Program-made: the position numbers and the translations under genes
Shown here: piece by piece, positions 11,525 through 25,370 of the stretch
How the letters are laid out: every line of letters begins with the position of its first letter
How positions within the stretch are numbered: the stretch's first letter is position 1
DNA from: a bacterium
GTDB taxonomy: Bacteria; Patescibacteriota; Minisyncoccia; Phycocordibacterales; UBA1550
NCBI GenBank assembly: GCA_021823825.1
Contig: JAKANJ010000001.1
Coordinates: 1 to 47,070 of the forward strand
Reading direction: 5' to 3'
Length of the DNA stretch: 47,070 nt
The notes under the pieces: generated by a model
Databases searched by the model: none
Told to the model about the DNA's origin: nothing
The model's input: only the letters and a program-made list of their open reading frames with translations

Positions 11525-11662
11525 ATGTCACAAACATACCAGCCTAAAAAAAGAAAACGAGCGACAACACATGGGTTTCTTGTTCGTTCGGGCACAAAAA
11601 GTGGTAAAAATGTCCTAAAACGACGCCGCCAAAAAGGCCGAAAACTTTTGTCTACTGTCTAA
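11525..11662 (+). CDS. rpmH: 50S ribosomal protein L34
   Basis: A manually found 45-aa ORF, below the track cutoff: [45 protein letters not shown]. It sits in the canonical position before rnpA. Confidence 0.93.
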
Positions 11663-11689
11663 AACCCTACAATAAAGGGTATAAATCAT

Positions 11690-13018: not shown

Positions 13019-13025
13019 AGAATTT

Positions 13026-13065
13026 AAAAAAACCCTAGCGGTAGATCTACCGCTAGGGTTTTTTT
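13026..13065. terminator. Bidirectional intrinsic terminator (yidC / end of the T4SS-like operon)
   Basis: aaaaaaaCCCTAGCGGTAGAtCTACCGCTAGGGttttttt: a perfect 13-bp palindromic stem with A and T flanks between convergent genes. Confidence 0.85.
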
Positions 13066-13076
13066 AAAAATCTTTT

Positions 13077-14435
13077 CTAACGAATTTTTTGCATATCGGG
13101 TGTTATTGCTGATGGTAAAATTGTTGGCGTTGTTGTATTACTAGAGGAAACCGTTTGTGGGGTATCAATAAGTCGATACACCCATGGAGTGCTGGTGATT
13201 TTATCAACAAATAAGAGATACGCATCGTTTGAGGACAAGAGGAGGTTGGTCATATCCATCGCTGGAGCTCCGTAGGCGCCCGGGACCATTATGGGTGTTA
13301 CATTGAGGGTTGCGACGTCAATCCTCCACAAAGAATCTGAAAACGAAATAACACCTTGGTACCATTGATCTGGGTATGTTCCTGTTGGGATATTCTGTGG
13401 CACGGCGCAGTAAACGACAGTTTTTTGCATTGTGGACCAAACACATTTTTCTGGAAGTGTTTGAAGAGATATTTGATTACTTGTTTTTTTTGTCGTGTCA
13501 TACACAGAGAGTTGAGGGACGCCAACTTGAGTTCCAGAATATAAAACATATTTTCCGTCAGTGTTTGTGAGTGTTGTAAGGCCATTTATGTCACCTAAAA
13601 TTTTTGTTACTGCTTTTGTCTTAGGGTTCAAGAAAAACATATCACCAGGAACATCAGCGGAAGGTTTTGTGTTTAATGTGACAAGGTTTTTGTTGGGAAA
13701 CTGTGGTAGCCACTCAGTAAATGGGGAGCTAAATATATTTATTGCAGAACTATTTTTAAAATCAGTCACAAACCCCAGTATTGGTCCACCAGTGTCCTTT
13801 AGATAAAAAAGTGTATTACTATTGTCTCCTGCAGTTGAAGCAAAAGGAATATAGTCAGGAAGAAAAACTTCCTCTGTTTTTAAGAAGGATGGCTGAACAC
13901 TCTCTGTGGAGGTGCTTATTGTTATTGGGGTTGCGGATGTGCCTAGGTTGATAATATGGCTTTTGATAAGGCCATCTGTCTGGCTATCAAGGTAGCGGAA
14001 AATAACACTATTTCCTTTATTCCCCCAAAGGGCTTCTGCAACCTGTGGATGTGTTTCGTTTGAAATCCTTGTCTCAGCAAATGTATTAAGCGGTGTTTCA
14101 AAAATATTACCTAAACTCCGCTCCATGTAGCGAGCACTCACAGAAAGAGAAGAACCTGAACCTGTTTCATAAAACCCCGCACCAGCGACAGGGGTTGTGT
14201 GAAGTTGATAAAGACGTGGAAGGGGTGCTCCAGATCCCGGTACAAAATTACTTACGCTACCGTACCCTCCCGCGCCACCAGTGCCACCGCCAGGCGCTTG
14301 GGCACCACTCCCTTGAGGGAATGTGGGGACGCCACTCGTTTGCGGGGTTGTTTTCCTAGAAAGAAGGAAAAATACTCCAACTGCGAGAAGAAGGACAACT
14401 ACGATTACTAGAATGATGAGATTGCGACGTTTCAT
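13077..14435 (-). CDS. Membrane-anchored extracytoplasmic protein, unknown function (last gene of the T4SS-like operon)
   Basis: N-terminal TM LIILVIVVVLLLAVGVFFLL, then a Gly/Pro-rich linker and a roughly 380-aa beta-rich region. No motif recognised. Confidence 0.7.
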   Translation of the reverse strand: MKRRNLIILVIVVVLLLAVGVFFLLSRKTTPQTSGVPTFPQGSGAQAPGGGTGGAGGYGSVSNFVPGSGAPLPRLYQLHTTPVAGAGFYETGSGSSLSVSARYMERSLGNIFETPLNTFAETRISNETHPQVAEALWGNKGNSVIFRYLDSQTDGLIKSHIINLGTSATPITISTSTESVQPSFLKTEEVFLPDYIPFASTAGDNSNTLFYLKDTGGPILGFVTDFKNSSAINIFSSPFTEWLPQFPNKNLVTLNTKPSADVPGDMFFLNPKTKAVTKILGDINGLTTLTNTDGKYVLYSGTQVGVPQLSVYDTTKKTSNQISLQTLPEKCVWSTMQKTVVYCAVPQNIPTGTYPDQWYQGVISFSDSLWRIDVATLNVTPIMVPGAYGAPAMDMTNLLLSSNDAYLLFVDKITSTPWVYRLIDTPQTVSSSNTTTPTILPSAITPDMQKIR

Positions 14436-14451
14436 GAATTAAATATGGTGT

Positions 14452-15378
14452 TTAATAGCAAACGTGCCAATGAGGGCTCGAACTATCTGTTGCTGGGGGG
14501 GTTCCTTCGGCAACGTAGGTGCCCGCGCCGGGGCCTGTTACATAATAATGATTTGCACTATCTACACCACAACCTTTGGCTGGAGCAGTGGGTGCTGGGG
14601 CATGGCTTTTAATATAGTTATCTAGTTGGGATGTGTGATGGAGGTCAACCATTGGCTGTCCTGGACCATGTGTTTGGTGTCCCCACTCTGTTCCACCAGT
14701 TATTGCTACGGAACAGTTGCAAGCTGTTGCGAGGGCTCTAACTCCATTAATGGCGCTCGTGGGGAGTTGGTACACACTTGTGCAATGTGACGGTATCGTG
14801 GTTTGGTCTGTTCTCCCTGTGCAGTCTGGCGTATATACCGAGACAACAGCGTTGTTGGGTAGCGGGGCAGTAAGAAGTGCTCGTTCACTGCTGTCGTCTG
14901 GCCAAGGACCAACAATGGTGCCATTTGCGCCCACACTAGTTCCTGTTGTGGAAGTGGTGCTAGCAAAATCCATTGGTGATAAACCGACAGGGGGCAACGC
15001 AAGATTAAAATTTACCAAATCGGGGTTAATTGAGTTGAGTATCAAATAAGAGGTAAGAACAAGAGCAAGGCCAATGAATGCATTTATCATCTTCTCTTTC
15101 GCGTCCATCTTTGCACTTGGAGAAATCCCCTTTGCAACATATTCTACCCCTGCAAGGATAGACATAATGACCGCAAGACCTGCACCAAGCGCGATAATAA
15201 GCTTTATCGCTCCCGCGAGATAGGTGGACATCGTGTAGGTGGACAGCGTGCTTCCCCCTGGCCCAATAGGTAGTGGTGCAAGGGGTGTATATGATGCGGA
15301 GATATCAGCGTGAGCGATAAAAGCACCTCCAATGAGGGCAACAAGTATTCCGCTAATTATTGGTGCAAATTTTTTCAT
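14452..15378 (-). CDS. T4SS pilin-like (VirB2/TrbC-type two-helix) protein fused to a putative LAS/M15-type zinc peptidase domain
   Basis: A signal peptide ends in AHA. Two hydrophobic helices (YLAGAIKLIIALGAGLAVIMSILAGV and INAFIGLALVLTSYLIL) flank the charged loop AKGISPSAKMDAKEKM. The Cys-rich C-terminal domain carries ITGGTEWGHQTHGPGQPMVDLHH and a terminal PHWHV. Confidence 0.6.
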   Translation of the reverse strand: MKKFAPIISGILVALIGGAFIAHADISASYTPLAPLPIGPGGSTLSTYTMSTYLAGAIKLIIALGAGLAVIMSILAGVEYVAKGISPSAKMDAKEKMINAFIGLALVLTSYLILNSINPDLVNFNLALPPVGLSPMDFASTTSTTGTSVGANGTIVGPWPDDSSERALLTAPLPNNAVVSVYTPDCTGRTDQTTIPSHCTSVYQLPTSAINGVRALATACNCSVAITGGTEWGHQTHGPGQPMVDLHHTSQLDNYIKSHAPAPTAPAKGCGVDSANHYYVTGPGAGTYVAEGTPPATDSSSPHWHVCY

Positions 15379-15387
15379 AACTTTTAA

Positions 15388-16533
15388 TTAAAATAATGTG
15401 TTACCTTGTGTGCTCTCGTTGTTACTAAAATAAATATGGAGAGACTGGCTCGCCTCCTGAAAAGATTTTTCAATATTACTCATAGAGAGTGAAATAAGTG
15501 AATCTCCTTGTGCCCCAGTATCGTTACGAAGGGTGATAGAACGACCATAGTTTTGTGTCGTTTGGCCGTTCATAGACCACGTGTAGCTGAGTGTTTGGGT
15601 GTCAGACTCATCGTTTGAGAAAAAATATGGCTCAGCAACAATCGTAATCTGTTTTTTAGAAAGAGTGTAATTCATTTGTATTGGGTTGTTATATAAAACC
15701 CCCAAAAGTGGGTCCTTCTCATAAAAAAGAATAAATGGTTGCGTTAAGGAAAGTGCGACTTGTGTTTCTGACTGAACACTATTATCAAGGGAGGAGACAA
15801 CAACACTCACATTCGCATCACTATATGGTTTTGGGCCCAAAAAAGAAAAGACATTTTTCCCATATCCAGAAGCGGAACTAACAACCGCTCCATCCTTTTT
15901 CCAAACATACACAAGGTTGCCGGCGCTCAGTGCGTTACCCGGTGTGTTGTTGTCTGGGATAGCGACAACCTGAACTTGCGCTTGTGGGGCGAGAAGGGCT
16001 TTGCCACGGTAAAACGGAGGCGTATAGGTGGTAGCTTGCCAAAGGGTCGTAATACCAATCGGTTGCCACGACAACTTTTTTGTCACATAGTCCCCCTCTG
16101 GGGTGCTAATAGAAACAGAAAGCCGTGTTACTACACCACTTGCGCCGTTTTGAAAACTAAATGTTCTTTGACCAACACCGCTCGATACAAGCTGTCCGTT
16201 GATTGACCACTTGAATGTTGCTTTATCAAGATCACTCAAATAACTATCAATAGTCACAGTTATTGTATCGTTAGGACCAGGATTTTCTGGGGTTGATTTA
16301 ATATCAAGGTAGTTACTGACAGGGTTTGAGCTTTGGGAAAGACTTGCCGACTGTACCGCAGAGCCCGCAAGTTGTTGCAACTGTGAGCTTATTAAGTCAT
16401 ATAGAGTGCTAGATAGGGGGGGTGTCGTGGTGGCGGTGTCCGTTGTTGTCGCTGTTTGTGCATGAACAAAAAACGGTATCACTAAAATTGCTACCAAGAG
16501 AATACGGTGTAATGCAGTGCGCAAATGATGCAT
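15388..16533 (-). CDS. Secreted protein with three internal beta-rich repeats, unknown function
   Basis: A signal peptide ends in VHAQ. The repeated motif appears as TFKWSINGQLVSSGVGQRTFSF, LVYVWKKDGAVVSSASGYGKNVFSF and LSYTWSMNGQTTQNYGRSITL. Confidence 0.7.
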   Translation of the reverse strand: MHHLRTALHRILLVAILVIPFFVHAQTATTTDTATTTPPLSSTLYDLISSQLQQLAGSAVQSASLSQSSNPVSNYLDIKSTPENPGPNDTITVTIDSYLSDLDKATFKWSINGQLVSSGVGQRTFSFQNGASGVVTRLSVSISTPEGDYVTKKLSWQPIGITTLWQATTYTPPFYRGKALLAPQAQVQVVAIPDNNTPGNALSAGNLVYVWKKDGAVVSSASGYGKNVFSFLGPKPYSDANVSVVVSSLDNSVQSETQVALSLTQPFILFYEKDPLLGVLYNNPIQMNYTLSKKQITIVAEPYFFSNDESDTQTLSYTWSMNGQTTQNYGRSITLRNDTGAQGDSLISLSMSNIEKSFQEASQSLHIYFSNNESTQGNTLF

Positions 16534-16586
16534 GTGATTACATTATAACGCGGAATATGTAAAGGCGCTATAGTGGAACAGTGAAA

Positions 16587-18410
16587 CTATTTAGTAGCCT
16601 GCTCCTCTGAAGCGAGAAGCTCACTTTTTGCTTTTTTTATAGCAAGAATTTGAGATGGATCAGAAGTAATAATTTGGTCTTCTGTGTAGGAGGCAATAGT
16701 GCGGATTGCCACATGTTTCATCCCTGCAAAAAAGATACCCTCCCCCACCCCAGACTCAAGTAAAAGAAACTTCTCTTCATCGGTCAAATTGAAGGCTTTT
16801 TGGACAGCATCTATCGCTGTAGGAGACTGTTTTAATAGAATTTGTATTGAAGAGTTTGTAATAATAGGAAGACCATAAGGGGAGCGGAGGAAGTCATTAA
16901 CATCTTGGGTTATTGTTGCAATTCCTAAGTAGTATTTACGACCTCGCTTTGCAAGAGAGTATAGGAACGCTGCAGTGTCCTCAGACTTCATCATCCACCA
17001 TGCCTCATCAACAACCAACAATCTCTTTCGCAGGGTGCGACGGATTGCATTCCAGATGAAGTGCGTCACCAGATACATTGCAACCGGCTTAAGGTCGTCT
17101 TCCATGTCACGAACCGAGAAAACGATAAATTTACGATTAATATCAACGTTTGAGGGCTGGTTGATAAACCCTGCCCATGACCCACGGGTGTATTTAGTGA
17201 GTTTCGTGAGAATTCCCTCGGCTCCATCCATACCTCCAAGTACAAGCTCAAAATCAGAAAGAAGTGGCGCTTCTATTGCGGTAAAATCAGAGTCAGGAGT
17301 TATATCTTTAAGCGCATAGGTTTCAGAAATTGCGCGATCAACAATCGCATCCTCTTCTGGGGTAAGGCCACCAAGCATTAAGCGGAAAAGACCGACAAGG
17401 TTTATGACGTTGGAGCGCAGGACATCACCAGGAGCTTCATCTTCTCGGGGAACCGGCAGGTCAAAGGGGTTGATGTGGTGTTCGGAGTTTAACGAAATGT
17501 TGAAGTAACGACCCCCCACAGCCTCTGCCATAGACTCATATTCTCGCTCGGGGTCAATAACAATAACATCGGTATCAAACATCAAACTACGAAGTATTTC
17601 GAGTTTAGTGGCGTAGGATTTTCCAGAACCAGACTTTGCAAACGTAACAGAATTGAAGTTTTCAAGAGAAAAACGATCAAAGAGGACAAGCGATGAGTTG
17701 TGGCGATTGATACCATAAAGGATTCCATGGTCTGAAGTGAGGTCAAATGAGACAAATGGGAAGAAACTTGAAAGTGGCTCCGAGTTTATTTTTTGGGTAA
17801 CGGTTATTTTGTCGTCATCCATCGGTATAATGCTCTGGAATGCCTCAACCTGTTGGAAAAGAGCTGGACGAATATAGATAAGACGGGACTCAAGCATTGA
17901 TTTAATCTCTGCCTCTGCATGACCAAGCTCCTCCTCAGAGTCAGCGTATAGCGAAATATACAACCCAACGTCAAACATTTTTTCTTGTGCTTGCTGGAGA
18001 CGATCGCGCAATGCTTCCAGGTCTCGATATGCGGCCTCAAGCATTGGATCCCTCACGAACCCCTTTCCTTCTCGTATATTAATCTGGCTCTGCACCTCAG
18101 CAACCTTTTTTTCAAACTTCTTCATTATTGCCGCGGTGTCAACGGGGTGAATATAAATTGAAATATCAAAAACTTTATCCAAATTGATAAGGGGAGAAAG
18201 CCAGTTGTCGGTAACTGTGCTTGGGTAGGAGGTGATAAAAAATGAACGTACAACCTTTTCTCCGAGGACAAGATCTTTTGAGGTAACTTTGACCGCCGAT
18301 GGTGCTATCACGTCATTTAAATTGAGCGCAGACTCAGCATACATCTCCTGTGGAAGAATAGGGATTACGTTTTCGTCGGTTGTTTTTTGTTTTTTGAAAA
18401 AATCAAACAT
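16587..18410 (-). CDS. virB4: VirB4/TrbE-family type IV secretion ATPase
   Basis: Walker A FAKSGSGKSYAT, Walker B RLLVVDEAWWMM, C-terminal ITQD motif GIATITQDVNDF. 607 aa. The genomic context includes PrgI-like and VirB6-like genes. Confidence 0.88.
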   Translation of the reverse strand: MFDFFKKQKTTDENVIPILPQEMYAESALNLNDVIAPSAVKVTSKDLVLGEKVVRSFFITSYPSTVTDNWLSPLINLDKVFDISIYIHPVDTAAIMKKFEKKVAEVQSQINIREGKGFVRDPMLEAAYRDLEALRDRLQQAQEKMFDVGLYISLYADSEEELGHAEAEIKSMLESRLIYIRPALFQQVEAFQSIIPMDDDKITVTQKINSEPLSSFFPFVSFDLTSDHGILYGINRHNSSLVLFDRFSLENFNSVTFAKSGSGKSYATKLEILRSLMFDTDVIVIDPEREYESMAEAVGGRYFNISLNSEHHINPFDLPVPREDEAPGDVLRSNVINLVGLFRLMLGGLTPEEDAIVDRAISETYALKDITPDSDFTAIEAPLLSDFELVLGGMDGAEGILTKLTKYTRGSWAGFINQPSNVDINRKFIVFSVRDMEDDLKPVAMYLVTHFIWNAIRRTLRKRLLVVDEAWWMMKSEDTAAFLYSLAKRGRKYYLGIATITQDVNDFLRSPYGLPIITNSSIQILLKQSPTAIDAVQKAFNLTDEEKFLLLESGVGEGIFFAGMKHVAIRTIASYTEDQIITSDPSQILAIKKAKSELLASEEQATK

Positions 18411-18415
18411 AAATT

Positions 18416-19069
18416 TTATTGTGCCACTACGTTTTTCTCTGCTTCACCCGGGTTAAAGAGGCGGTAGTAGAGCTCGGTAAGCTCTTCTGTGCCCAAAGGA
18501 ACAACGCGAACACCTGTTCGTGCAAGGCCTTGTTTGACGATACCAACACGCTGTTCAATTTGTGAACGCGCCTCCTCAAAAGCCTCAACCGCGCTTGGGG
18601 ACGGGACAGTGCTCTTTTCTTTTTTACCGCCCAAAAGACCCATAAAACCAGAAGATTTTTCACTGCTTGTTACTGATTTTGGTGGTGCATAGGGCACCAC
18701 AACAATAAAAAGCTTATTCATAATATTGGTTGACTGCGTAATCTTTTGAATAAAACTTATGTATTCATGGATCTGTATTTTGAGAAGTTCATTGAGCTCG
18801 GTTTGTAGGCGAGCCTCAAGAAGTTTTACATAAGGACGGATATCCAGCTTTCTTGACTGTATAAAAATTTGTGTGGAGAACTCAAGAGAATTCAAAAAAT
18901 TTTGAAACTGACCAAGAATGGCAACCTGTTCATCGTCGGACTTGAGAGCAAGGTTTATTGATGAAGCAAGAAGAAGTACGCGGATTGTGCCGTCTTTTAG
19001 GATAACGATTCCATCGCGGATTTCCTTGATTGGAACAAAATCTTGAGCTGCTTTTGATTTAATTGCCAT
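18416..19069 (-). CDS. Soluble T4SS-associated protein resembling a VirB4 N-terminal domain (tentative)
   Basis: 217 aa with no TM, 5 nt upstream of virB4. FVPIKEIRDGIVILKDGTIRVLLLASSINL...FLNSLEFSTQIFIQS follows the pattern seen at VirB4-type N-termini. Assignment is by resemblance only. Confidence 0.35.
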   Translation of the reverse strand: MAIKSKAAQDFVPIKEIRDGIVILKDGTIRVLLLASSINLALKSDDEQVAILGQFQNFLNSLEFSTQIFIQSRKLDIRPYVKLLEARLQTELNELLKIQIHEYISFIQKITQSTNIMNKLFIVVVPYAPPKSVTSSEKSSGFMGLLGGKKEKSTVPSPSAVEAFEEARSQIEQRVGIVKQGLARTGVRVVPLGTEELTELYYRLFNPGEAEKNVVAQ

Positions 19070-19071
19070 AA

Positions 19072-19512
19072 TTATAATTGTTTACCTTTTGGTTCAACTG
19101 TCGGGCTACCTCCGCCAACATCTAAACCAAGTGATTTATTGGAAAGATTTCCAAGAGATAGTGATGTTGGGCTTTGTGGAACCTGGGAAGGAAGCCCTTT
19201 CCCGGCGCCGGGAGATGTTTCTTTTGTCGTTTTTTTCCACGTGTAGAGCTTACTGCCAATATAGTAATTGAAGCCAGCCTCAAGAACACCAATAAACGGC
19301 TTTCCAAGCTTCTCTTTTGGGTAAAATGCAAGCGCCCAAGTGAGGAAACCCAGCCCAAAAATAATCGGCGCGGAGATAAAAATCCAAGGAATGAGTCGGT
19401 AAATAAAATATGCGCCAGCAATACCCCCTGCGACGTAGATAGCTTGCTTTAAGGTGAGTGGTCCGAAAAGTTTGTCCTCAATATCAATATATTGTGGAAT
19501 GTGAAATTGCAT
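19072..19512 (-). CDS. PrgI-family / VirB3-like small membrane protein
   Basis: MQFHIPQYIDIEDKLFGPLTLKQAIYVAGG is followed by two TM helices, the characteristic PrgI-family opening. It lies immediately upstream of the VirB4 module. Confidence 0.7.
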   Translation of the reverse strand: MQFHIPQYIDIEDKLFGPLTLKQAIYVAGGIAGAYFIYRLIPWIFISAPIIFGLGFLTWALAFYPKEKLGKPFIGVLEAGFNYYIGSKLYTWKKTTKETSPGAGKGLPSQVPQSPTSLSLGNLSNKSLGLDVGGGSPTVEPKGKQL

Positions 19513-19620
19513 ATGAATAGTATAACGTATTTATCAAACTCAGGGAACGGTAAACTCTAGTTGTGATAGACCGAAAAACTATTTTTGCCCACTTTTGGTA
19601 GACACTTTGTTTCGCCAACA

Positions 19621-20409
19621 CTATTCAATCGGCTCACGGTAAGGGTCCTTCCTTGGCACGACAGGTATTGCAACCTCCTGTGCTGTACTCGTTGCTGGGG
19701 ATGGTGTTGCTGGTGCTTGTGGTGTAGAAGGCTGAACGGGGTTGATTGTAGGAGGGACAAACGAGGTTTCTGGGGCGACCGCCGTACTTGAGGCGACTGG
19801 CTCAAGTACGAGACTGTCTGGATCCGCTTGCCCCGAGGTGAATACCTGCTTCATTTTTTCCTCAAAAGGATGTGGCTCTATTTTGGGCTGTTGTGGTTCG
19901 GGTGTGTATACCCTGTTCCCAACCTTTTCTTCTATTGGAGGAATAAGGGGTTCTACCTCGGGCGCTATGGGCAAATTTTCTGGAGCGACGACGTTTTTAA
20001 ACATTGCTGGCGCTTCAGGCTCTACGGGAACGTTCTTTTCTGTGGTTTCTGGTGTAGGAGCAGGCTGTTCTTCGCTGCTATTTGTCTCATTTTCAAAAAA
20101 TGAGACAAGATCGGCACGTATTGAGTTAAAAATTTTCTGCTCTGTTGCATTAACAACTGCTTCAAGCACAGCTCCTTTTAACCCAAGTTCCTCTTGTAAG
20201 GCGGAGCCGAATTCATCAACCGGGACCAAACCAGCAAGAACAAGGGCAACTTCTCTTTTAAAGTTTGAAACCTGTTCTTCGTCTAAATTGTACATTGAAG
20301 CAATTGCGTCAAGGTCTTCATTCCAGTTTGGTGTAGCAAGAAACGCAACAACACTTTTAGGAAGTTTAAGAAGTTGCTCTTGAAGAATTGTTAATGTTTC
20401 GTTATCCAT
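19621..20409 (-). CDS. Acidic, proline-rich protein with a folded N-terminal ~100-aa domain, unknown function
   Basis: 262 aa, no signal peptide or TM. The C-terminal 150 aa are P/E/V-rich low complexity. It lies inside the operon. Confidence 0.65.
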   Translation of the reverse strand: MDNETLTILQEQLLKLPKSVVAFLATPNWNEDLDAIASMYNLDEEQVSNFKREVALVLAGLVPVDEFGSALQEELGLKGAVLEAVVNATEQKIFNSIRADLVSFFENETNSSEEQPAPTPETTEKNVPVEPEAPAMFKNVVAPENLPIAPEVEPLIPPIEEKVGNRVYTPEPQQPKIEPHPFEEKMKQVFTSGQADPDSLVLEPVASSTAVAPETSFVPPTINPVQPSTPQAPATPSPATSTAQEVAIPVVPRKDPYREPIE

Positions 20410-20427
20410 GAGGTATTTTTGTGTAAT

Positions 20428-23196
20428 TTATGGTGTCGCTTGTTTCTTTGCCGCCTCAGCCGCTTTCTTTGCCACTTCAGCCTCATCAGCCTCCCTTTTT
20501 GCAGCTATTTTTTGTATCGCTTTAGTCATACTCTCTTCTTCTTTTTCTTCTTTTGCTTTTTTTGCTTTAGCGCTCGCGTTTCTGATCTTGTTTGCTCTAT
20601 TTAATGCAGTTGTTCTTCCTGATGCTGTCCAATTATCACCAGAATCTTTGTGGCGTGCGTAGACCTCACGACGAGCCGCATTTTCTTCAATCAACTCATT
20701 CTTTGCTTTTTTAAGATCAGCGTCTTTTATCTTCTTTATTTCAGCTGTCTCTGCGCGCCGCTTTGCTGCCGCCGCAAGGTCTATTCCCTCAGCAGAAGCT
20801 GAGTGAGTTGAGATTGCAGAGTCCACATTATTTTTTGCCGTTGTGCGTGCCATTGTAGCATCGGATGCAGTTTTTTTCGCTACAGCCTCTGCCCTTTCCG
20901 CATCAGCCTGACCGATCTTTTTTCCTGGGTAGTTAGGATCTTCAAGCGCGTTTGGGTTTGAGGTTATTTTCTTCAGATTTTCAGAAGCTATTGCCAAAGC
21001 TGCGGCTGCGGCTGTTTCCTTTTCAACAAGCTCCTTTTCGGCTTTCTGAGCCGCGACAACGGCTTTACCTGTCTCACTCCCTGCCGCCTTCTCCTCGGCC
21101 TTCTTTAGGTTTTGCTCAGCGTCATAATCTGCACGGTTTGCTAGGTTTGCTTCGTGCTCTTTTTGTTCAATTGCTTTCTGTGGACGCTCCATGAGTTTTG
21201 CCATGTGCTCATTCTTCTTTTCCCTGTCCTCATTCCACTTCTTCCCTTGAGAGGTGTATGTCATCTCACTACCCTTACCTAGGCCCAATGTTTTACCAAC
21301 AGCTCCGCCCCCGATATTGCGCACATCAAAGGTTGCATTCTGTGCCTTGTCTGCGGCAAGAAGCCCAAGCTTGCTAACACCGCGGGTTATTTTGTTTGAG
21401 CTCAACGCTCCCTCCTGGAGCTTCCCACTTGCGGCAAGCATTGATCCAGCTTGACCAGCGGCAAGTGATGCTCCGCCAGACGCGACAGCCACGCCTGCAC
21501 CGATTGCTTTTGAAGCATACTCTGATGCCATTTTGCCAAAGTCGCCACTCATTTTTTCAGCAACCTTCAGCGCTTTCTGCAGCGCAAGGAATATTATTAT
21601 TGCAATAGTGATTGGGACAACAAGCTTATCAAAAATGAAAGTTGAGGTACTTGATGCATCTCCCACAACACCGCTCAAAATACCGCCACCCGCAGAAACA
21701 CCTTGCATAACGAGGTAAATCAAAAAGAGGAAGACCGGCGCAACAAAGGCTTGATCTAGGAGTGTGTTTGACCACCAATTAAAAATACTCCCTTTCGGTA
21801 AGGCAATAGATATAAAAGCAAAGGGTGAAAGAATCATCAAGAACCAAAAAGCAACAAGACGACCAAGGAAAAGCAATGTTCCTTTAAAAAAGATGTATGC
21901 CACCGTGAGGCTTACAAAAGCGGCAACTAAGAAAATAATAAGTGCATCAAGTGGGCTCGTGAGGGCTTTTGCACCTGCTTCACCGAGGAATTTTTGCGGC
22001 TGGAATTGGGCTGCAATTCCACTCGCTATTCCGCGTTGTTGTACATCGCTTGTACTTGTTTTAATTCCTGATGTGTTGGTTGTGCCCATGCTGTTGTACA
22101 CCCCAACCGCAAGAACATTCCCGGCATCTATGACCACCTTTGTAAAAAATAGACTGAAGTTTATCAAAAGAGCAATGACAATGACGTTTATCACTGTCTT
22201 TTTCCAGTTGCCTAACCCCAGCATTGTCTGTATCCCCGTATAAAGGAGAATAAAGATAAAAATCATGTTGGAGAAATTCCTGAGAAGAACCCAGAGCGTT
22301 GATACGAACGGTTTATTTACAAATGCACTACTAATGCTCAAGGACAATGCCATGTCAAAGAAGTAAACAGCGCCCATGAGCAACCAGGAGGATGGAACAT
22401 AAAAAGCATAGTACGCACCGATGGTGAGACAAGCGGGGACATCAAAACCATCAGTTATTCCTTTCCAGCATTGGAGTTTTCCAAGGTTTGGATTTTGGCC
22501 CGCGGGAGGTGCTGCTGTGGTTACGCTTACATTTCCTGTTCCTGTTTCACCTGTCGGGCTTGTGCATGTCAGGCTGTATGTTCCCGCTTGTGGCGGTTTG
22601 ATCGTCCATGTACCACTATATTCTTTGGGGCCTGCCCAATTCCCCGGACCCGAAGCAAGACAACCATTAGGTGCCTTTGTATTTGAGGCTGTCCATGAAA
22701 TATTGATTTGCTGAGTAGAATTGTCGGCAGCGAGTTGTTGTGGTGTTGCGGTGAGAGAAACAACGGGCTGTGTCGCCGAAGTTGGCATATTGACGTTTAC
22801 GTACAAATAAGTGCTTGGGCTAATACTGAAGGTGTCGGGGTTAATGCACTTAATACCGAAAACGACAGGGTTTGCCCAAGTAGAGTCAATGGTAACCGGC
22901 ACTGTCTGTTCACCCGAAGGAGGACGAGAGAGGGGTGTATTTGGATCAATGTTGCCTCCTGATATTAAACACTGTGATGGAGCATTAGATGCCCAGCGGA
23001 GGGTAACGCTATCACCATTATTAATCGTCGTTGTGTCAGTGTTGTCGTTCGGTGTTGATGAGGTTGCGGGCGCAACTGTTGCAGATGTGATCACAACTTT
23101 ATCAGCTGCGTGGGCAAAGGGTGCCATTACAAAGTTAACTCCAAAGAACGTAATTCCCGCTAGTGCAATTAGTGTTGTTTTAAGAATTTTGTTCAT
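20428..23196 (-). CDS. VirB6/TrbL-like polytopic membrane protein with N-terminal extracellular beta domains and a long A/K/E-rich C-terminal tail
   Basis: The likely start is ATG 23196 (MNKILKTTLIALAGITFFGVNFVMAPFAHA signal); the ORF is open to 23280. About 250 aa are beta-rich with repeated W/T/C motifs. About 8 TM helices follow, then a roughly 330-aa charged coiled-coil-like tail. Confidence 0.6.
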   Translation of the reverse strand: MNKILKTTLIALAGITFFGVNFVMAPFAHAADKVVITSATVAPATSSTPNDNTDTTTINNGDSVTLRWASNAPSQCLISGGNIDPNTPLSRPPSGEQTVPVTIDSTWANPVVFGIKCINPDTFSISPSTYLYVNVNMPTSATQPVVSLTATPQQLAADNSTQQINISWTASNTKAPNGCLASGPGNWAGPKEYSGTWTIKPPQAGTYSLTCTSPTGETGTGNVSVTTAAPPAGQNPNLGKLQCWKGITDGFDVPACLTIGAYYAFYVPSSWLLMGAVYFFDMALSLSISSAFVNKPFVSTLWVLLRNFSNMIFIFILLYTGIQTMLGLGNWKKTVINVIVIALLINFSLFFTKVVIDAGNVLAVGVYNSMGTTNTSGIKTSTSDVQQRGIASGIAAQFQPQKFLGEAGAKALTSPLDALIIFLVAAFVSLTVAYIFFKGTLLFLGRLVAFWFLMILSPFAFISIALPKGSIFNWWSNTLLDQAFVAPVFLFLIYLVMQGVSAGGGILSGVVGDASSTSTFIFDKLVVPITIAIIIFLALQKALKVAEKMSGDFGKMASEYASKAIGAGVAVASGGASLAAGQAGSMLAASGKLQEGALSSNKITRGVSKLGLLAADKAQNATFDVRNIGGGAVGKTLGLGKGSEMTYTSQGKKWNEDREKKNEHMAKLMERPQKAIEQKEHEANLANRADYDAEQNLKKAEEKAAGSETGKAVVAAQKAEKELVEKETAAAAALAIASENLKKITSNPNALEDPNYPGKKIGQADAERAEAVAKKTASDATMARTTAKNNVDSAISTHSASAEGIDLAAAAKRRAETAEIKKIKDADLKKAKNELIEENAARREVYARHKDSGDNWTASGRTTALNRANKIRNASAKAKKAKEEKEEESMTKAIQKIAAKREADEAEVAKKAAEAAKKQATP

Positions 23197-23325
23197 CCCG
23201 TTAGAAATAGGCCGCGATTGAAGAGCGACATTGTGTTCTATTTCTTTTGTGTTGCTTCGACTTTTCATTTTTGTGTTCATCGCGATTTCTAACGGGATTC
23301 ATTCGGATAAATTAAAACACGGTAG

Positions 23326-24432
23326 CTACTTAAAGACCCCCCGCACGGTTTGCTGTACGAGCTGGGTCAAAAGTGCAGTGATAACCTTGTTCATATCATC
23401 AGCAAAACCTAAACGATCCATATCAACACCAAGTGTTTTTGTAAGTTGGTTGGAGATGACATTTCCTGGGGTTGTAATGGGGCAGTATTTCTTTTCAAGT
23501 GCCGAAATAACTTCAGGGGTATATTTTTTAGGATCTGGACGACCTGTTGCATCAAGAGCAATTGCGTTGGGATCTTTTGGTTTATCTTTTATGTTTACAT
23601 AGCTACATTTTTTAGGGTCATTATCAACAAGGTCAATAAAGCCATGCGACCATGCGAGTTGCTGTGCCTGAAGAGCTGCTTGTTGTTGCTCTCGTTGATT
23701 CAATTCGTCGCCTGTAAGCACCGCGACACCAAATGGGTTCCCCGCGTCATTCAAGGCGTTTGCGAAAGAATCCCACCCACCATTTGTGAAGTCATTATAA
23801 AAGGCGCCCGCATCACCTGTGCCAAACGGACACTTGACTTGGGATGCAAACATTTGGCTGTTGTCCGAGGATAAATCAACAGCATTGCTCAACGTGACGG
23901 TAAAATTGGGAACAAAGTTACATGCCCCAATGCTTTTAATTTGTTGAGCGAGCTCGGTTGCGACTGAGTTAGCTATATCAGCAAAAACCTTTTTAGGACT
24001 GATTGCAAATGATGGGCTACCATGGAATCCTCCTTGAATCCACTTAATAGTGCTATTTGTCATTTCTGTCAGCGTGCACTGCGCAAGAACATATGCAATA
24101 TTATTTAAAACAGATTTTGTTGGATCTACTGCAGTGATAATACCTAAATTCGAGCCGGCAACAGTTGCCGCCGGGATATTAGTAACTGGAACGTTGCCTA
24201 CAGCAGCTGCTGTCGCTGCAGCAGCTGCTGTCGCAGCCGCAGCTGCCGCAACTTGTGCATCTGTGGATGTGAGTTTTAATGTGTCGACAAGCCCTGCCGC
24301 AGTCCCTGTTGTAATACAAACTGCGAATGATGCATTGTCAGCGTGTGCGCGAGGTGTACCAGTGAGTGCTATGTAAACAGCAAAAGCGGATATCACAACA
24401 GTCTTTTGGAGTGTTTTGAAATTATAATTCAT
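23326..24432 (-). CDS. Secreted protein with poly-Ala tract, unknown function
   Basis: A signal peptide ends in AHA. It carries the tract AAAAATAAAAATAAAV and 4 Cys. No family recognised. Confidence 0.7.
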   Translation of the reverse strand: MNYNFKTLQKTVVISAFAVYIALTGTPRAHADNASFAVCITTGTAAGLVDTLKLTSTDAQVAAAAAATAAAAATAAAVGNVPVTNIPAATVAGSNLGIITAVDPTKSVLNNIAYVLAQCTLTEMTNSTIKWIQGGFHGSPSFAISPKKVFADIANSVATELAQQIKSIGACNFVPNFTVTLSNAVDLSSDNSQMFASQVKCPFGTGDAGAFYNDFTNGGWDSFANALNDAGNPFGVAVLTGDELNQREQQQAALQAQQLAWSHGFIDLVDNDPKKCSYVNIKDKPKDPNAIALDATGRPDPKKYTPEVISALEKKYCPITTPGNVISNQLTKTLGVDMDRLGFADDMNKVITALLTQLVQQTVRGVFK

Positions 24433-24441
24433 ACTTTGTAA

Positions 24442-25260
24442 TTAATTTGGCAGCACATAATTTTTATATTCATTTTGAGCAACAAGGGTATCTTGTGCTG
24501 CCTCCTGGTACTGTTTAAAGCCCGTAAGACCTTTAACGGGGTCATCAAATATCCCCTCCATTATTTTTAAACCATTTTGCATGTCTGAATAATCCTGAAC
24601 AACCCGCAAGTGAATTGACGCGAGAGAGGATGGGGTACTAACGGCAAGGATTCCTTTAATTAATGTTTCGTAGTGAGCAATGTTTTGCTCAAGTTTGGAA
24701 ATTCTCAATGCGCTGTTGGTGCCAGGGTCTTCTAATGCGACCTGGAGATCCCCATTTGTCTGTGAGGAAACAAAATTACTAATGAGTCTCGTCATTGCTA
24801 CGGTGTAGTTAATGACCGCGGTGCGACTGTTGTCTTCGGTGATATTGAGGTCACTGACTTGATACTGTTTCCCATACGAGACGGGAATACTATTTGCTAG
24901 TACTTGCGCTTGAGATAACGCATCTGCGTCGCTCAATGTGGTTGTTCCTGTATTTTGTACAAATGCAGCGTAGTTGTTGATGAGCTGTCTCGCGAGGAGG
25001 TCTGTTGTCGTTGTTCCAAGTGGTGCGTCGGGCAGTGTTGATGAATCATTTGCAACCGTTGAAATTGGAGCTGTTTGTAATGTGTCGTTGTTTTGAGTAC
25101 TACTAACAACTTGTAGGGTGTTTGCGTTACTTGCCACAGAGTTTGCAGATTCGTGTGGTGTTGCATTAAATAAATTTTTATTTAATGCAAGATAAATGAT
25201 GCCTATGCTGAGGAGGACAGCGAGGAAGATAGAAAAGATTTTTTTTGATTGCTGGTTCAT
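24442..25260 (-). CDS. N-terminally anchored extracytoplasmic protein, unknown function (first gene of the operon)
   Basis: TM helix IFSIFLAVLLSIGIIYLAL followed by a T/S/N-rich region and a helical C-terminal half. Confidence 0.7.
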   Translation of the reverse strand: MNQQSKKIFSIFLAVLLSIGIIYLALNKNLFNATPHESANSVASNANTLQVVSSTQNNDTLQTAPISTVANDSSTLPDAPLGTTTTDLLARQLINNYAAFVQNTGTTTLSDADALSQAQVLANSIPVSYGKQYQVSDLNITEDNSRTAVINYTVAMTRLISNFVSSQTNGDLQVALEDPGTNSALRISKLEQNIAHYETLIKGILAVSTPSSLASIHLRVVQDYSDMQNGLKIMEGIFDDPVKGLTGFKQYQEAAQDTLVAQNEYKNYVLPN

Positions 25261-25322
25261 ACCTCCTTGCTAATAAGTATACCAGATACTTATATGAATA
25301 TACAGTAAAATTTGATGTTTTT

Positions 25323-25331
25323 TGTGGACAA
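25323..25331. promoter_or_regulatory. DnaA-box-like 9-mer (TGTGGACAA) in the divergent promoter region
   Basis: An 8/9 match, equivalent to the TTGTCCACA variant. It sits about 25 nt upstream of the extended -10-like TGGTATACT at 25356-25364, between the T4SS-like operon and the PG-binding gene. Confidence 0.4.
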
Positions 25332-25370
25332 CCATAAACAAACTCGTTACCTTCGTGGTATACTTTTAAA

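What the first reader, a model, noticed from the sequence alone, without database searches (positions are those of the whole stretch)
13077..25260. Pared-down type IV secretion-like operon with six orphan envelope proteins and no conjugation functions
Ten co-directional genes lie on the minus strand with gaps of 2-108 nt, bounded by a divergent promoter region and a strong bidirectional terminator.

Four products are recognisable:
- a VirB4 ATPase (Walker A FAKSGSGKSY, Walker B LLVVDEAWWMM);
- a PrgI/VirB3-like protein;
- a 900+-aa VirB6/TrbL-like polytopic protein;
- a VirB2/TrbC-style two-helix pilin-like protein.

I cannot recognise a coupling protein (VirD4/TraG), a relaxase, VirB11, or VirB8/9/10 homologues anywhere in the window. 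The other six products are signal-peptide or TM-anchored proteins with no nameable family.

The operon sits in the core chromosome beside yidC and the dnaA origin region, not in an obviously mobile context. That argues for a resident envelope machine, for example host contact, effector delivery or DNA uptake in an epibiotic cell, rather than a conjugative element. This function is inference.
Basis: partly seen in the sequence, partly recalled or inferred. Interest (0 to 1): 0.8.

Follow-up and report, generated by a model that had tools for sequence, protein, structure and literature searches.

The report
Patescibacterial chromosomal type IV secretion operon
This is the origin-proximal, conjugation-free type IV secretion gene cluster that ultra-small Patescibacteria (here a Paceibacteria-type genome) carry as a core envelope machine; it is real and well conserved, but its existence, make-up and location were already published in 2023-2025, so only some details of its accessory proteins are new.

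Summary
Ten co-directional minus-strand genes lie at 13077-25260, with gaps of 2-108 nt. They sit between a 110-nt divergent intergenic region and a perfect 20-bp-stem bidirectional terminator.

The VirB4, PrgI/VirB3 and VirB2-like pilin calls pass curated HMM cut-offs. The VirB6 call is supported only remotely, by fold search and by Pfam hits in relatives. One supposed orphan, the 217-aa protein, is the detached VirB4 N-terminal module (TrsD-like). It and the 262-aa protein have no membrane segment.

No coupling protein, relaxase or VirB11 is encoded in the window. Gene order g1-g10 and the flanks (uvrD-ksgA on one side, yidC-rnpA-dnaA-dnaN on the other) are kept in 78 of 80 other Paceibacteria-type genomes. 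It is therefore a vertically inherited core machine, not an ICE.

This system is already described: Wang et al. 2023 (Cell), Quinonero-Coronel et al. 2025 (Microbial Genomics) and a 2025 FEMS review. That includes the missing relaxase and the dnaA/rnpA/ksgA neighbourhood in Paceibacteria.

I did not find one detail in those papers. The pilin gene here is fused to a 160-aa Cys/His-rich extracytoplasmic domain. Orthologues replace that domain with known peptidoglycan hydrolases.

The parts
24442..25260 (-). g1: 272-aa bitopic envelope protein with an N-terminal TM helix, a Ser/Thr-rich linker and a conserved C-terminal domain. Family unknown.
   Evidence: One hydrophobic segment at aa 8-26. No Pfam, NCBIfam or PDB-profile hit. 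Found at the first position of the cluster in 20 of 80 loci at E<=1e-5, with 21-34% identity. AAGGAGG lies 5 nt before the ATG.
23326..24432 (-). g2: 368-aa secreted protein with a signal peptide ending ...AHA-D and a conserved core carrying invariant W, G, C and P residues. Orthologues add lectin or Ig-like C-terminal domains. Candidate surface or adhesin component.
   Evidence: No Pfam or PDB hit for the core. Among 45 orthologues, 5 carry F5/8 type C domains, 2 carry Bact_surface_Ig-like and 1 carries fn3. Present in 49 of 80 loci, always just upstream of g3.
20428..23280 (-). g3: 950-aa 'extended' VirB6-like polytopic membrane protein. Layout: signal/TM, then two Cys-containing beta-rich repeats (aa ~60-260), then a multi-helix membrane core (aa ~280-600), then a long charged coiled-coil tail (aa ~680-950).
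   Evidence: Hydrophobic segments. AlphaFold model of aa 265-640: pLDDT 84.1, pTM 0.77. Foldseek PDB ranks 1-6 are chains of R388 TrwJ/VirB5-TrwI/VirB6 stalk entries, taken as TrwI/VirB6 from their modelled lengths. Probabilities are 0.94-1.00, E-values 8e-3 to 0.1, and TM-score 0.36-0.45 normalised by target. Rank 7 is DotA-IcmX. Homologues P0168, P0170, P0177 and P0178 carry PF04610; P0180 and P0186 carry PF19590. Only 1 of 46 orthologues hits TrbL directly.
19621..20409 (-). g4: 262-aa cytoplasmic protein with a ~105-aa helical N-domain, a Pro-rich disordered region and a conserved C-terminal DPYRE motif. Function unknown.
   Evidence: No hydrophobic segment. No Pfam or PDB hit. Found between VirB6 and PrgI in 26 of 80 loci. 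Conserved motifs seen in alignment A8.
19072..19512 (-). g5: PrgI/VirB3-like small membrane protein that anchors VirB4.
   Evidence: Pfam PF12666 PrgI, 30 bits against a gathering score of 27, aa 5-79. TM hairpin at aa ~34-62. Present in 76 of 80 loci.
18416..19069 (-). g6: TrsD-like protein, the detached N-terminal module of VirB4. Soluble.
   Evidence: NCBIfam hits: TrsD/TraD E=7e-7; VirB4_plasma positions 101-226, E=6e-8; CD1110 positions 2-118, E=1e-3. Orthologues carry PF26593 TraC-like. g7 lacks the first ~215 residues of pCF10 PrgJ. Present in 79 of 80 loci at 49-79% identity. No PDB sequence hit.
16587..18410 (-). g7: VirB4 ATPase of the MPF_FATA-related CD1110 type, the motor of the system.
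   Evidence: NCBIfam NF045971, 364 bits against a cut-off of 325; Pfam P-loop_TraG 1e-24. Walker A and B motifs present. 26% identity to pCF10 PrgJ, E=2e-41. 72-93% identical to VirB4 of many Paceibacteria MAGs.
15388..16533 (-). g8: 381-aa secreted protein made of three Ig-like beta-sandwich repeats, each with a W-x-x-(N/D)-G motif (aa 109, 211, 319).
   Evidence: Signal-like N-terminus. Pfam PKD_3 at 1e-4, below the cut-off. Orthologue hits: BiPBP_C 12 of 46, Ig_3 7 of 46, PKD_3 5 of 46. Weak PDB hit to Hoc. Repeats located. Present in 79 of 80 loci.
14452..15378 (-). g9: VirB2-like pilin module (signal peptide aa 1-24, two hydrophobic helices aa ~50-117) fused through a low-confidence linker to a 160-aa Cys/His-rich extracytoplasmic domain (aa ~150-308) of unknown family.
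   Evidence: PF18895, 29.8 bits against 26.6. All 72 of 72 relatives hit PF18895 and 10 of 72 hit TrbC/VirB2. AlphaFold pLDDT 83.5, with the linker at aa 128-140 below 50. Invariant C186, C199, C220, C222, E231, H234, D245, H303 and H305. The domain alone finds 611 cluster representatives. Of the 137 new hits listed, 119 also carry the pilin module. It is the only pilin gene in the window.
13077..14435 (-). g10: 452-aa bitopic protein with an N-terminal TM anchor, a Gly-rich linker and a TolB-like beta-propeller.
   Evidence: TM at aa 6-24. The orthologue profile hits TolB 7mx5 at E=4e-4 and 12 further TolB chains. PD40 repeat detected in 4 of 46 orthologues. Present in 71 of 80 loci, always last.
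13023..13068 (.). Bidirectional intrinsic terminator shared by yidC (+) and g10 (-).
   Evidence: Perfect inverted repeat with a 20-bp stem, AAAAAAACCCTAGCGGTAGATCTACCGCTAGGGTTTTTTT, reported on both strands.
25261..25370 (.). Divergent intergenic region upstream of g1 and of the TIG/PG-binding gene. Presumed promoters.
   Evidence: Sequence read directly. Only a plus-strand sigma-70-like site, at 25335-25364. A one-mismatch DnaA-box-like TTGTCCACA lies at 25323-25331; its significance is unknown.

Best explanation
[quoted passage not shown] It descends from the conjugation machinery of monoderm bacteria (MPF_FATA). It has lost, or never kept nearby, the DNA-processing and substrate-recruiting parts: relaxase, coupling protein and VirB11.

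**What is retained**
- The cytoplasmic-membrane motor and platform: VirB4 split into TrsD-like g6 plus g7, its anchor PrgI/VirB3 (g5), and an extended VirB6 (g3).
- A VirB2-type pilin (g9).
- Conserved envelope proteins: g1, g2, g8 (3 Ig-like domains) and g10 (membrane-anchored beta-propeller).
- One cytoplasmic partner, g4.

**Most likely mechanism (inferred, not shown)**
1. Sec inserts the pilin module into the membrane with its C-terminal domain outside.
2. The VirB3-anchored VirB4 hexamers extract pilin and feed it onto a VirB6 base. This follows the pilus-biogenesis model derived from the R388 structure.
3. The result is a surface filament or conduit that crosses the cell wall, helped by the wall-active domain attached to the pilin and scaffolded by g8, g10, g1 and g2.
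4. The structure is used for contact and macromolecule exchange with the host cell, on which these reduced-genome bacteria depend.

The set of parts kept is, in diderm systems, the set needed for pilus biogenesis. The set missing is the one needed for DNA substrate delivery. Essentiality is known only from the Saccharibacteria homologue.
For: **Component identities:**

**Missing functions:** no T4CP, relaxase or VirB11 domain in any of the ORFs of 100 aa or more that were scanned with Pfam, and no further VirB2-like gene.

**Vertical, core-genome inheritance**
- Order g1-g10 is colinear in 78 of 80 species-level genomes, with the same uvrD-ksgA and yidC-rnpA-dnaA-dnaN flanks.
- The same holds in more distant contigs.

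**Strong purifying selection:** VirB4 has a median identity of 74%, against 60% for DnaA. It is more conserved than every housekeeping neighbour in 70 of 70 loci.

**Origin proximity:** DnaA-box clusters lie at 9771-9942 and 11401-11420, and GC skew changes sign near 12 kb.

**Extracytoplasmic, wall-directed role of the pilin's second domain:** orthologues in the same gene position carry NlpC/P60, VanY, Peptidase_M15_4, YkuD, SLT or Amidase_5 domains instead.

**Literature**
- The same system, the same absences and the same neighbourhood are described in PMC12102498.
- The homologous Southlakia cluster SEML1_0006-0019 is essential for epibiotic growth and also lacks a recognisable T4CP and relaxase (PMC10633639).
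- The pilus-conduit idea appears in PMC12857230.
Against: - No experiment exists for any Paceibacteria system, and no pilus of this type has been seen.
- VirB6 similarity is remote: Foldseek E=8e-3, TM-score 0.36-0.45; hhalign against PrgH gives 7% probability.
- No VirB5-like or VirB8-like part was recognised. In the R388 model both take part in pilus assembly.
- A 160-aa domain on every pilin subunit might prevent polymerisation. The 'pilin' module could then be only a membrane anchor.
- A coupling protein may be encoded elsewhere in the genome. PMC12102498 reports VirD4 homologues in many Patescibacteria, far from virB4. The window covers only 47 kb.
- The 80 loci were chosen by VirB4 similarity, which inflates the VirB4 conservation comparison.
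Confidence: 0.85

Rival explanations
1. It is the mating-pair-formation module of an integrated conjugative element (ICE) whose relaxase, coupling protein and att sites lie outside the window.
For: VirB4, PrgI and TrsD are conjugation-type families. A tyrosine recombinase (38303-39247) and tRNA genes (41580-43779) lie in the window. T4CP homologues exist elsewhere in many Patescibacteria genomes (PMC12102498).
Against: The cluster sits between the same housekeeping genes in 78 of 80 different species. Its GC content, 0.43-0.47, matches most of the window. VirB4 is more conserved than DnaA. No relaxase or T4CP domain occurs in the window. The recombinase has the XerC/D-type domain pair and lies 13 kb away, separated by conserved core genes.
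Confidence: 0.02
2. It is a DNA- or nucleotide-import machine analogous to the Helicobacter ComB system or the archaeal Ced system. It would be a T4SS without coupling protein or relaxase that pulls host or environmental DNA inward to feed a cell unable to make nucleotides.
For: The retained parts, VirB2, VirB3, VirB4 and VirB6, are also the inner core of ComB (my knowledge of that family). VirB4 gives a weak hit to CedB (NF041017, E=7e-10). Import from the host is the hypothesis favoured in PMC12102498. A ComM-like gene lies nearby at 33606-35144.
Against: In Southlakia, comEC is dispensable while the T4SS is essential. Uptake through the usual ComEC channel is therefore not the essential function (PMC10633639 as summarised in PMC12857230). 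No DNA-binding component was recognised in the cluster.
Confidence: 0.2
3. It exports protein effectors or lytic enzymes into or onto the host cell without a coupling protein, as the Bordetella Ptl and Brucella VirB systems do. The pilin-attached wall-active domain would be one of the delivered activities.
For: T4CP-less protein-secreting T4SSs exist (PMC12102498; PMC12857230). Wall-hydrolase domains are attached to the pilin module in orthologues. g2 orthologues carry lectin-like domains suited to binding a foreign surface. Protein export is one of the options named by Wang et al..
Against: No effector candidates or secretion signals were identified. Ptl substrates reach the periplasm by Sec, and there is no such compartment in a monoderm. 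The hydrolase domains could act on the cell's own wall, as VirB1 or PrgK do.
Confidence: 0.25
4. The 'pilin' g9 does not polymerise. It is the VirB1/PrgK equivalent, a wall hydrolase held at the membrane by a VirB2-like hairpin, and the system has no pilus.
For: g9 lies after VirB4, near where pCF10 has PrgK and Southlakia has a lysozyme-like protein. In 46 orthologues there are 13-14 Pfam hits to wall-active enzyme families. Some relatives carry large domains on both sides of the hairpin.
Against: Bare pilins of 124-140 aa occupy the same position in some genomes: L031, L057 and L074. The window's own C-terminal domain could not be assigned to any hydrolase family. Saccharibacteria have essential arrays of small pilins of the same Pfam family.
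Confidence: 0.3

Closest known systems
Patescibacteria T4SS as defined by Quinonero-Coronel et al. 2025 (PMC12102498) and Wang et al. 2023 (Southlakia epibionticum SEML1_0006-0019, PMC10633639)
   Same: The component set is the same: VirB4, an adjacent TrsD, PrgI/VirB3, VirB6 and a PF18895 VirB2-like pilin. No relaxase or T4CP lies nearby. The location is chromosomal, next to dnaA, dnaN, rnpA and ksgA, as reported for Paceibacteria. The core order VirB6 - x - PrgI - TrsD - VirB4 - envelope proteins matches Southlakia.
   Different: There is a single pilin gene, fused to an extra domain, instead of an array of six small pilins. No NTF2-like (VirB8-like) gene and no lysozyme-like gene were recognised. 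The accessory proteins g1, g2, g8 and g10 have no counterpart named in those papers.
MPF_FATA conjugative T4SS of Gram-positive plasmids and ICEs (pCF10 Prg/Pcf; pGO1 Trs)
   Same: VirB4 belongs to the CD1110 family and is 26% identical to PrgJ. A PrgI-family protein lies just upstream, and a separate TrsD-like protein is present as in pGO1. The order VirB6-VirB3-VirB4 is kept.
   Different: No PcfC-type coupling protein, relaxase, accessory factor, PrgK-type hydrolase, PrgL/VirB8-like protein or LPXTG adhesin was recognised. It has a VirB2-like pilin, which these systems lack. It is chromosomal and vertically inherited.
R388/VirB-type (MPF_T) T4SS inner-membrane complex and stalk (PDB 7o3v, 8rt9, 8rtd)
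   Same: The g3 membrane core has TrwJ/VirB5-TrwI/VirB6 stalk-entry chains as its best structural matches, taken as TrwI/VirB6 from their length. The VirB2-like two-helix pilin and the VirB3-VirB4 pairing are shared.
   Different: There is no outer-membrane core (VirB7/9/10), and no VirB5, VirB8, VirB11 or VirD4 was recognised. VirB6 is 'extended' with extracellular repeats and a 270-aa coiled-coil tail.
T4CP-less T4SSs (Helicobacter ComB DNA uptake; Bordetella Ptl; Brucella VirB)
   Same: They work without a coupling protein and relaxase, so they offer precedents for a non-conjugative use.
   Different: Those are diderm systems with complete VirB7-10 cores. No sequence relationship beyond the shared VirB families was tested here.

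Membership tests
Patescibacteria-clade T4SS (PMC12102498) | VirB4 related to MPF_FATA and closest to other Patescibacteria VirB4 | tested here: met
   NF045971 CD1110 family, 364 bits against 325. The 120 best database hits are all Patescibacteria or unnamed, at 74-93% identity. No phylogenetic tree was built.
Patescibacteria-clade T4SS (PMC12102498) | TrsD-like, PrgI/VirB3-like, VirB6-like and VirB2-like (PF18895) genes next to virB4 | tested here: met
   TrsD E=7e-7. PrgI above the gathering score. PF18895 above the gathering score. VirB6 only by fold search and by relatives' Pfam hits.
Patescibacteria-clade T4SS (PMC12102498) | No relaxase or coupling protein near virB4; chromosomal site near dnaA/dnaN/rnpA/ksgA (Paceibacteria) | tested here: met
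   Pfam scans of the window's long ORFs. Synteny in 78 of 80 loci.
Patescibacteria-clade T4SS (PMC12102498) | Required for epibiotic growth | not testable with these tools
   Known only for Southlakia (Tn-seq).
Conjugative MPF_FATA T4SS / ICE | Coupling protein (VirD4/PcfC or TcpA type) | tested here: not met
   No T4SS-DNA_transf or TraG-type hit other than VirB4 in the window. The rest of the genome was not available.
Conjugative MPF_FATA T4SS / ICE | Relaxase and oriT | tested here: not met
   No relaxase domain in the window. oriT was not searched because it has no general model.
Conjugative MPF_FATA T4SS / ICE | Mobile context: variable insertion site, att repeats and an integrase at the border | tested here: not met
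   Same flanking core genes in 78 of 80 species. GC content is like the surroundings.
Conjugative MPF_FATA T4SS / ICE | VirB8-like (PrgL/TraM, NTF2-like) subunit | tested here: inconclusive
   Profiles of g1, g2, g4, g8 and g10 gave no VirB8-type hit in PDB sequences. Fold-level comparison of these proteins was not possible because the structure jobs were exhausted.
VirB6/TrbL family (g3) | Polytopic membrane protein with sequence or fold similarity to VirB6 | tested here: inconclusive
   No Pfam hit for g3 itself. 1 of 46 orthologues hits TrbL. 6 of 66 remote homologues carry PF04610 or PF19590. The top six Foldseek hits are R388 stalk-entry chains, taken as TrwI/VirB6, with E-values of only 8e-3 to 0.1. 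hhalign against PrgH gives 7%.
VirB2/TrbC-type T4SS pilin (g9 N-terminal module) | Cleavable signal peptide, two hydrophobic helices joined by a short charged loop, HMM match | tested here: met
   PF18895, 29.8 bits against 26.6. 72 of 72 relatives hit it, and 10 of 72 also hit PF04956 TrbC. Helices at aa 50-82 and 87-117 in the model. Polymerisation is not testable.
LAS / M15 zinc peptidases (g9 C-terminal domain) | H-x(3-6)-D and H-x-H zinc-binding motifs in a recognisable LAS fold | tested here: not met
   Invariant H234, D245 and H303-W-H305 resemble the motifs. However, the domain profile finds no PDB sequence at E<=10. hhalign against a relative's VanY domain gives 0.5% probability. Foldseek PDB and viral searches of the full-length model show no LAS peptidase in the top 50.

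The most novel reading that the evidence does not exclude
In Paceibacteria the T4SS pilin is a carrier for exchangeable cell-wall-active modules. The gene after virB4 and g8 encodes a VirB2-like hairpin. Its extracytoplasmic C-terminus bears, depending on the lineage, one of the following:
- NlpC/P60, VanY/M15, YkuD, SLT or Amidase_5 domains;
- dockerin or carbohydrate-binding domains;
- as in this window, a previously undescribed ~160-aa domain with four invariant cysteines and an E/H/D/H-x-H set.

That last domain has 611 cluster representatives and is almost always attached to a pilin module. If these subunits polymerise, the filament would be a pilus coated with wall-degrading or wall-binding enzymes. 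That would be a device for breaching the host's or the cell's own wall, and a merger of the VirB1 and VirB2 roles in one protein. I found no mention of such fusions in the papers I read or in one keyword search of the held library.
Probability: 0.3. Interest if true: 0.6.

Novelty: already known. Interest (0 to 1): 0.35.

Why it matters
The Patescibacteria T4SS is considered one of the most intriguing recent additions to the T4SS superfamily. It is the only T4SS shown to be essential to its bearer, it occurs in a monoderm yet has pilins, and its substrate is unknown.

This window adds no new principle. It does give a clean, complete Paceibacteria example, and it yields usable leads:
- five conserved accessory proteins with first structural guesses: an Ig-like triple repeat, a TolB-like propeller, a lectin-decorated secreted protein, a bitopic helical protein and a cytoplasmic adaptor;
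- an extended VirB6;
- pilin-enzyme fusions that point to the cell wall as the structure the machine has to deal with.

These are concrete targets for cryo-ET and biochemistry once a Paceibacteria co-culture is tractable.

Tried and rejected
1. **LAS/M15 peptidase assignment for the g9 C-terminal domain.** The motifs are suggestive. A PDB profile search gave 0 hits at E<=10. hhalign against a VanY domain gave 0.5%. Two Foldseek searches of the full-length model returned only helical-hairpin matches. I dropped it as a claim and kept it as a lead.
2. **PrgH (pCF10) as a direct homologue of g3.** hhalign probability was 7%, which is inconclusive.
3. **g6 against the pCF10 PrgJ N-terminus.** BLASTP gave E=0.89 and hhalign gave 0.1%. 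The TrsD/VirB4-N assignment rests on NCBIfam and on Pfam PF26593 in orthologues.
4. **g5 against pCF10 PrgI by BLASTP.** Not significant. The Pfam profile hit stands.
5. **g4 against the neighbouring DUF5663 protein.** hhalign gave 2.5%. No relation.
6. **PDB profile searches for g1, g2, g4 and g6.** Nothing found. Pfam on g1 and g4 orthologues gave only TSP3 repeats.
7. **R388 record BR000038.** Not in the plasmid collection, so no direct VirB5 or VirB8 comparison was made.
8. **Sigma-70 promoter scan.** No more sites than in shuffles, and none convincing for the operon.
9. **ICE reading.** Rejected on synteny.
10. **Extra pilin genes or extra P-loop proteins in the window.** None found.

Full report
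**1. What is there**

The window carries ten ORFs on the minus strand between 13077 and 25260. They are separated by 9, 45, 18, 108, 2, 5, 53, 9 and 16 nt. I call them g1 to g10 in the order of transcription.

Downstream, g10 converges on yidC. The 58-nt spacer holds a perfect inverted repeat with a 20-bp stem, flanked by A and T runs (13023-13068). The scan reports it as a terminator on both strands.

Upstream, g1 is divergent from a TIG/PG-binding gene across 110 nt. g1 has an AAGGAGG ribosome-binding site. No convincing sigma-70-type promoter was found for the operon, and the scan as a whole found no more promoter-like sites than in shuffles.

**2. Context**

| Side | Genes |
|---|---|
| Left of the cluster | yidC, rnpA, dnaA, dnaN, a class A PBP, tyrS, ruvC, yebC, ruvB, a PilB-type ATPase |
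| Right of the cluster | TIG/PG-binding protein, ksgA, uvrD, a DUF5663 protein, a 732-aa orphan, an M23/LysM peptidase, comM-like, a DksA/TraR zinc finger, then further housekeeping genes and four tRNAs |

- Perfect DnaA boxes cluster on both sides of dnaA: 9843, 9934 and 11401, plus near-perfect neighbours.
- GC skew changes sign near 12 kb. The replication origin is therefore next to the cluster.
- Exact-sequence look-ups place the contig in an uncultured Paceibacterota/Minisyncoccia metagenome-assembled genome.
- None of the ORFs of 100 aa or more that I scanned with Pfam shows a coupling-protein, relaxase or VirB11 domain.

**3. The recognisable parts**

- **g7 is a VirB4 ATPase.** It scores 364 bits against NCBIfam CD1110 family (cut-off 325). 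It also hits Pfam P-loop_TraG. It is 26% identical to pCF10 PrgJ over PrgJ residues 218-772.
- **g6 supplies the missing VirB4 N-terminus.** The first ~215 residues of PrgJ have no counterpart in g7. g6 (217 aa, no membrane segment) matches the N-terminal part of three VirB4/TrsD models: TrsD at 7e-7, VirB4_plasma positions 101-226 at 6e-8, and CD1110 positions 2-118. Its orthologues carry the newer Pfam family PF26593, TraC-like. VirB4 is therefore split as in pGO1 (TrsD plus TrsE).
- **g5 passes the Pfam PrgI threshold**.
- **g9 passes the PF18895 T4SS_pilin threshold.** All 72 of its database relatives hit this family, and ten also hit TrbC/VirB2.
- **g3 is VirB6-like, but only remotely.**
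  - It has no Pfam hit of its own, and only 1 of 46 orthologues touches TrbL.
  - Six of 66 more distant homologues carry PF04610 or PF19590.
  - An AlphaFold model of its membrane core (aa 265-640, pLDDT 84, pTM 0.77) was searched with Foldseek. The six best PDB matches are chains of R388 stalk entries (TrwJ/VirB5-TrwI/VirB6), followed by DotA-IcmX.
  - Probabilities are 0.94-1.00, E-values only 8e-3 to 0.1, and TM-scores 0.36-0.45.
  - That these chains are TrwI rather than TrwJ is my inference from the modelled chain lengths of 260-272 residues.
  - I accept VirB6 as the best reading, of the 'extended' kind discussed in PMC12857230. It has two extracellular Cys-containing repeats in front and a long charged coiled-coil tail behind.

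**4. The 'orphans'**

I fetched 80 loci from one-genome-per-species contigs using VirB4. All are Paceibacteria-type MAGs: Yonath-, Nomura-, Kaiser-, Taylor- and Campbellbacteria and others.

tblastn with the window's proteins, at E<=1e-5 and with many loci truncated, finds:

| Gene | Loci with a hit (of 80) |
|---|---|
| g7 | 80 |
| g6 | 79 |
| g8 | 79 |
| g5 | 76 |
| g10 | 71 |
| g3 | 63 |
| g9 | 62 |
| g2 | 49 |
| g4 | 26 |
| g1 | 20 |

The order is colinear and on one strand in 78 of 80 loci. The flanks are the same: yidC-rnpA-dnaA-dnaN on one side and ksgA-uvrD on the other. Two more distant contigs keep the same plan. The unnamed genes are thus conserved members of the module.

Profiles built from the orthologues give first ideas:

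- **g10** is a membrane-anchored TolB-like beta-propeller (7mx5 at E=4e-4, plus twelve other TolB chains; PD40 in four orthologues).
- **g8** is a secreted protein of three Ig-like repeats (BiPBP_C in 12, Ig_3 in 7 and PKD_3 in 5 of 46 orthologues).
- **g2** is a secreted protein whose conserved core matches nothing. Its orthologues add discoidin (F5/8 type C), Ig-like or fn3 domains, which suggests a surface-binding role.
- **g1** (bitopic) and **g4** (cytoplasmic, with a Pro-rich tail and a C-terminal DPYRE motif) remain without any match.

**5. The pilin is a fusion**

g9 is 308 aa long. Its parts are:

- a signal peptide;
- a two-helix pilin module (helices at aa 50-82 and 87-117);
- a low-confidence linker;
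- a well-predicted alpha/beta domain at aa ~150-308, with invariant C186, C199, C220, C222, E231, H234, D245, H303 and H305.

With the topology usual for VirB2-type pilins, this domain lies outside the membrane. That rests on my knowledge of the family.

Searched alone against 1.84 billion cluster representatives, the domain finds 611 proteins at E<=1e-3. Of the 137 new hits listed, 119 also contain the pilin module, and most of the rest look like fragments.

In the orthologous gene position of 46 loci, 39 proteins hit PF18895. Their C-terminal parts are replaced by a range of other domains:

| C-terminal domain | Orthologues |
|---|---|
| NlpC/P60 | 3 |
| VanY | 3 |
| Peptidase_M15_4 | 2 |
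| YkuD | 2 |
| SLT / SLT_2 | 1-2 |
| Amidase_5 | 1 |
| Extensin-like_C | 1 |
| CBM_10 | 1 |
| TIG | 1 |

A few orthologues are bare pilins of 124-140 aa. Database relatives include pilin-VanY and pilin-dockerin proteins.

The window's own domain could not be placed. My LAS-peptidase idea (H-x-D plus H-x-H) failed every sequence and fold test available.

The pattern still argues that the position after the pilin hairpin is a slot for cell-wall-directed modules. The 2025 survey notes that VirB1 homologues associate with virB4 only in Paceibacteria. In its text it mentions no VirB2 fusions. This is the one aspect I could not find in the papers I read or in one keyword search of the held library.

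**6. What it is and how it probably works**

The cluster is the Patescibacteria T4SS. It combines an MPF_FATA-type motor and platform (VirB4 with TrsD, PrgI/VirB3, VirB6) with a VirB2-like pilin. It lacks the DNA-processing and substrate-recruiting proteins.

The parts retained are those that, in the R388-based model, build the pilus. The parts missing are those that deliver DNA. My best mechanistic reading is therefore as follows:

- It is a VirB4-driven assembly of a pilin-based surface structure.
- The structure passes the wall with the help of the pilin-borne domain and the conserved envelope proteins.
- It serves for contact and exchange with the host cell.

This is inference. The only experimental anchor is the essentiality of the homologous Southlakia cluster.

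VirB4 is extraordinarily conserved. Its median identity is 74%, against 60% for DnaA, and it exceeds every housekeeping neighbour in 70 of 70 loci. This fits an essential function, with one caveat: the loci were picked by VirB4 similarity.

The rivals cannot be separated with sequence data:

- DNA or nucleotide import, ComB- or Ced-like;
- coupling-protein-independent protein export;
- a non-polymerising, membrane-anchored hydrolase.

The ICE reading is excluded by synteny.

**7. Comparison with the literature, and novelty**

- Wang et al. 2023 (PMC10633639) described the Saccharibacteria cluster: its Gram-positive-like composition, its pilins, the lack of a coupling protein and relaxase, and its essentiality.
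- Quinonero-Coronel et al. 2025 (PMC12102498) surveyed Patescibacteria. They reported VirB4, TrsD, PrgI/VirB3, VirB6 and VirB2-like genes. They noted the absence of relaxases and the proximity to dnaA, dnaN, rnpA, ksgA and rpmH in Paceibacteria. They also proposed repurposing for import from hosts.
- The 2025 FEMS review repeats this and proposes a pilus conduit.

That is a sound reading, but not a new one.

I rate the novelty as 'already known' and the interest as modest. The residual value lies in the accessory proteins and the pilin fusions.

Noticed in passing
window 14452-15378 (g9) and the orthologous genes in L001-L080, e.g. L010:12834-14072, L017:12806-13798, L025:12870-14162: The VirB2-like pilin gene of the cluster carries interchangeable C-terminal domains across Paceibacteria. 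These include NlpC/P60, VanY, Peptidase_M15_4, YkuD, SLT, Amidase_5, CBM_10 and dockerin. Some genomes have no extra domain. The window's version is an unassigned Cys4/His-rich domain with 611 cluster representatives, nearly always attached to a pilin module.
   Followed up: partly
window 16587-18410 compared with 9957-11333, across L001-L080: VirB4 is more conserved than DnaA, DnaN, UvrD, KsgA and YidC in every locus where they can be compared: 70 of 70, with median identity 74% against 60% for DnaA. The loci were selected by VirB4 similarity, so the size of the effect is biased.
   Followed up: partly
window 9723-9956 and 11334-11689; operon 13077-25260: DnaA-box clusters flank dnaA, and GC skew turns positive near 12 kb. 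If the origin is there, the 12-kb T4SS operon is transcribed towards the origin, head-on to the rightward fork. This orientation is kept in the related loci. The published gene-dosage argument does not mention it.
   Followed up: no
window 25323-25331: A one-mismatch DnaA-box-like sequence, TTGTCCACA, lies about 60 nt upstream of the g1 start codon, in the presumed operon promoter region. Such matches are common by chance: 26 were found and 12 expected.
   Followed up: no
window 42849-42878: Three adjacent DnaA-box-like sites, one of them perfect, lie in the tRNA-rich region far from dnaA.
   Followed up: no
window 29695-32236: A DUF5663 protein (112 aa) and a 732-aa protein with no Pfam match lie on the minus strand between uvrD and the M23/LysM peptidase. 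They are absent from the same spot in the more distant locus L084.
   Followed up: no
window 32553-33548, 33606-35144 and 35151-35552: An M23/LysM peptidase, a ComM-like Mg-chelatase ATPase and a DksA/TraR zinc-finger protein lie upstream of uvrD-ksgA. They are syntenic with the T4SS cluster in distant relatives (L084, L085). The 2025 survey counts M23/LysM proteins among possible VirB1 substitutes.
   Followed up: no
window 252-1526: A PilB/GspE-type ATPase (T2SSE, E=2e-118) shows that the type IV pilus system typical of Patescibacteria is also present on this contig.
   Followed up: no
window 42163-42576 and 43554-43880: ORFs of 137 and 108 aa overlap tRNA-Gly, tRNA-Pro and tRNA-Arg genes. 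They are almost certainly not genes.
   Followed up: no
window 12027-12257: A 76-aa ORF between rnpA and yidC sits where relatives have yidD (PF01809 in L082). This was not checked directly.
   Followed up: no
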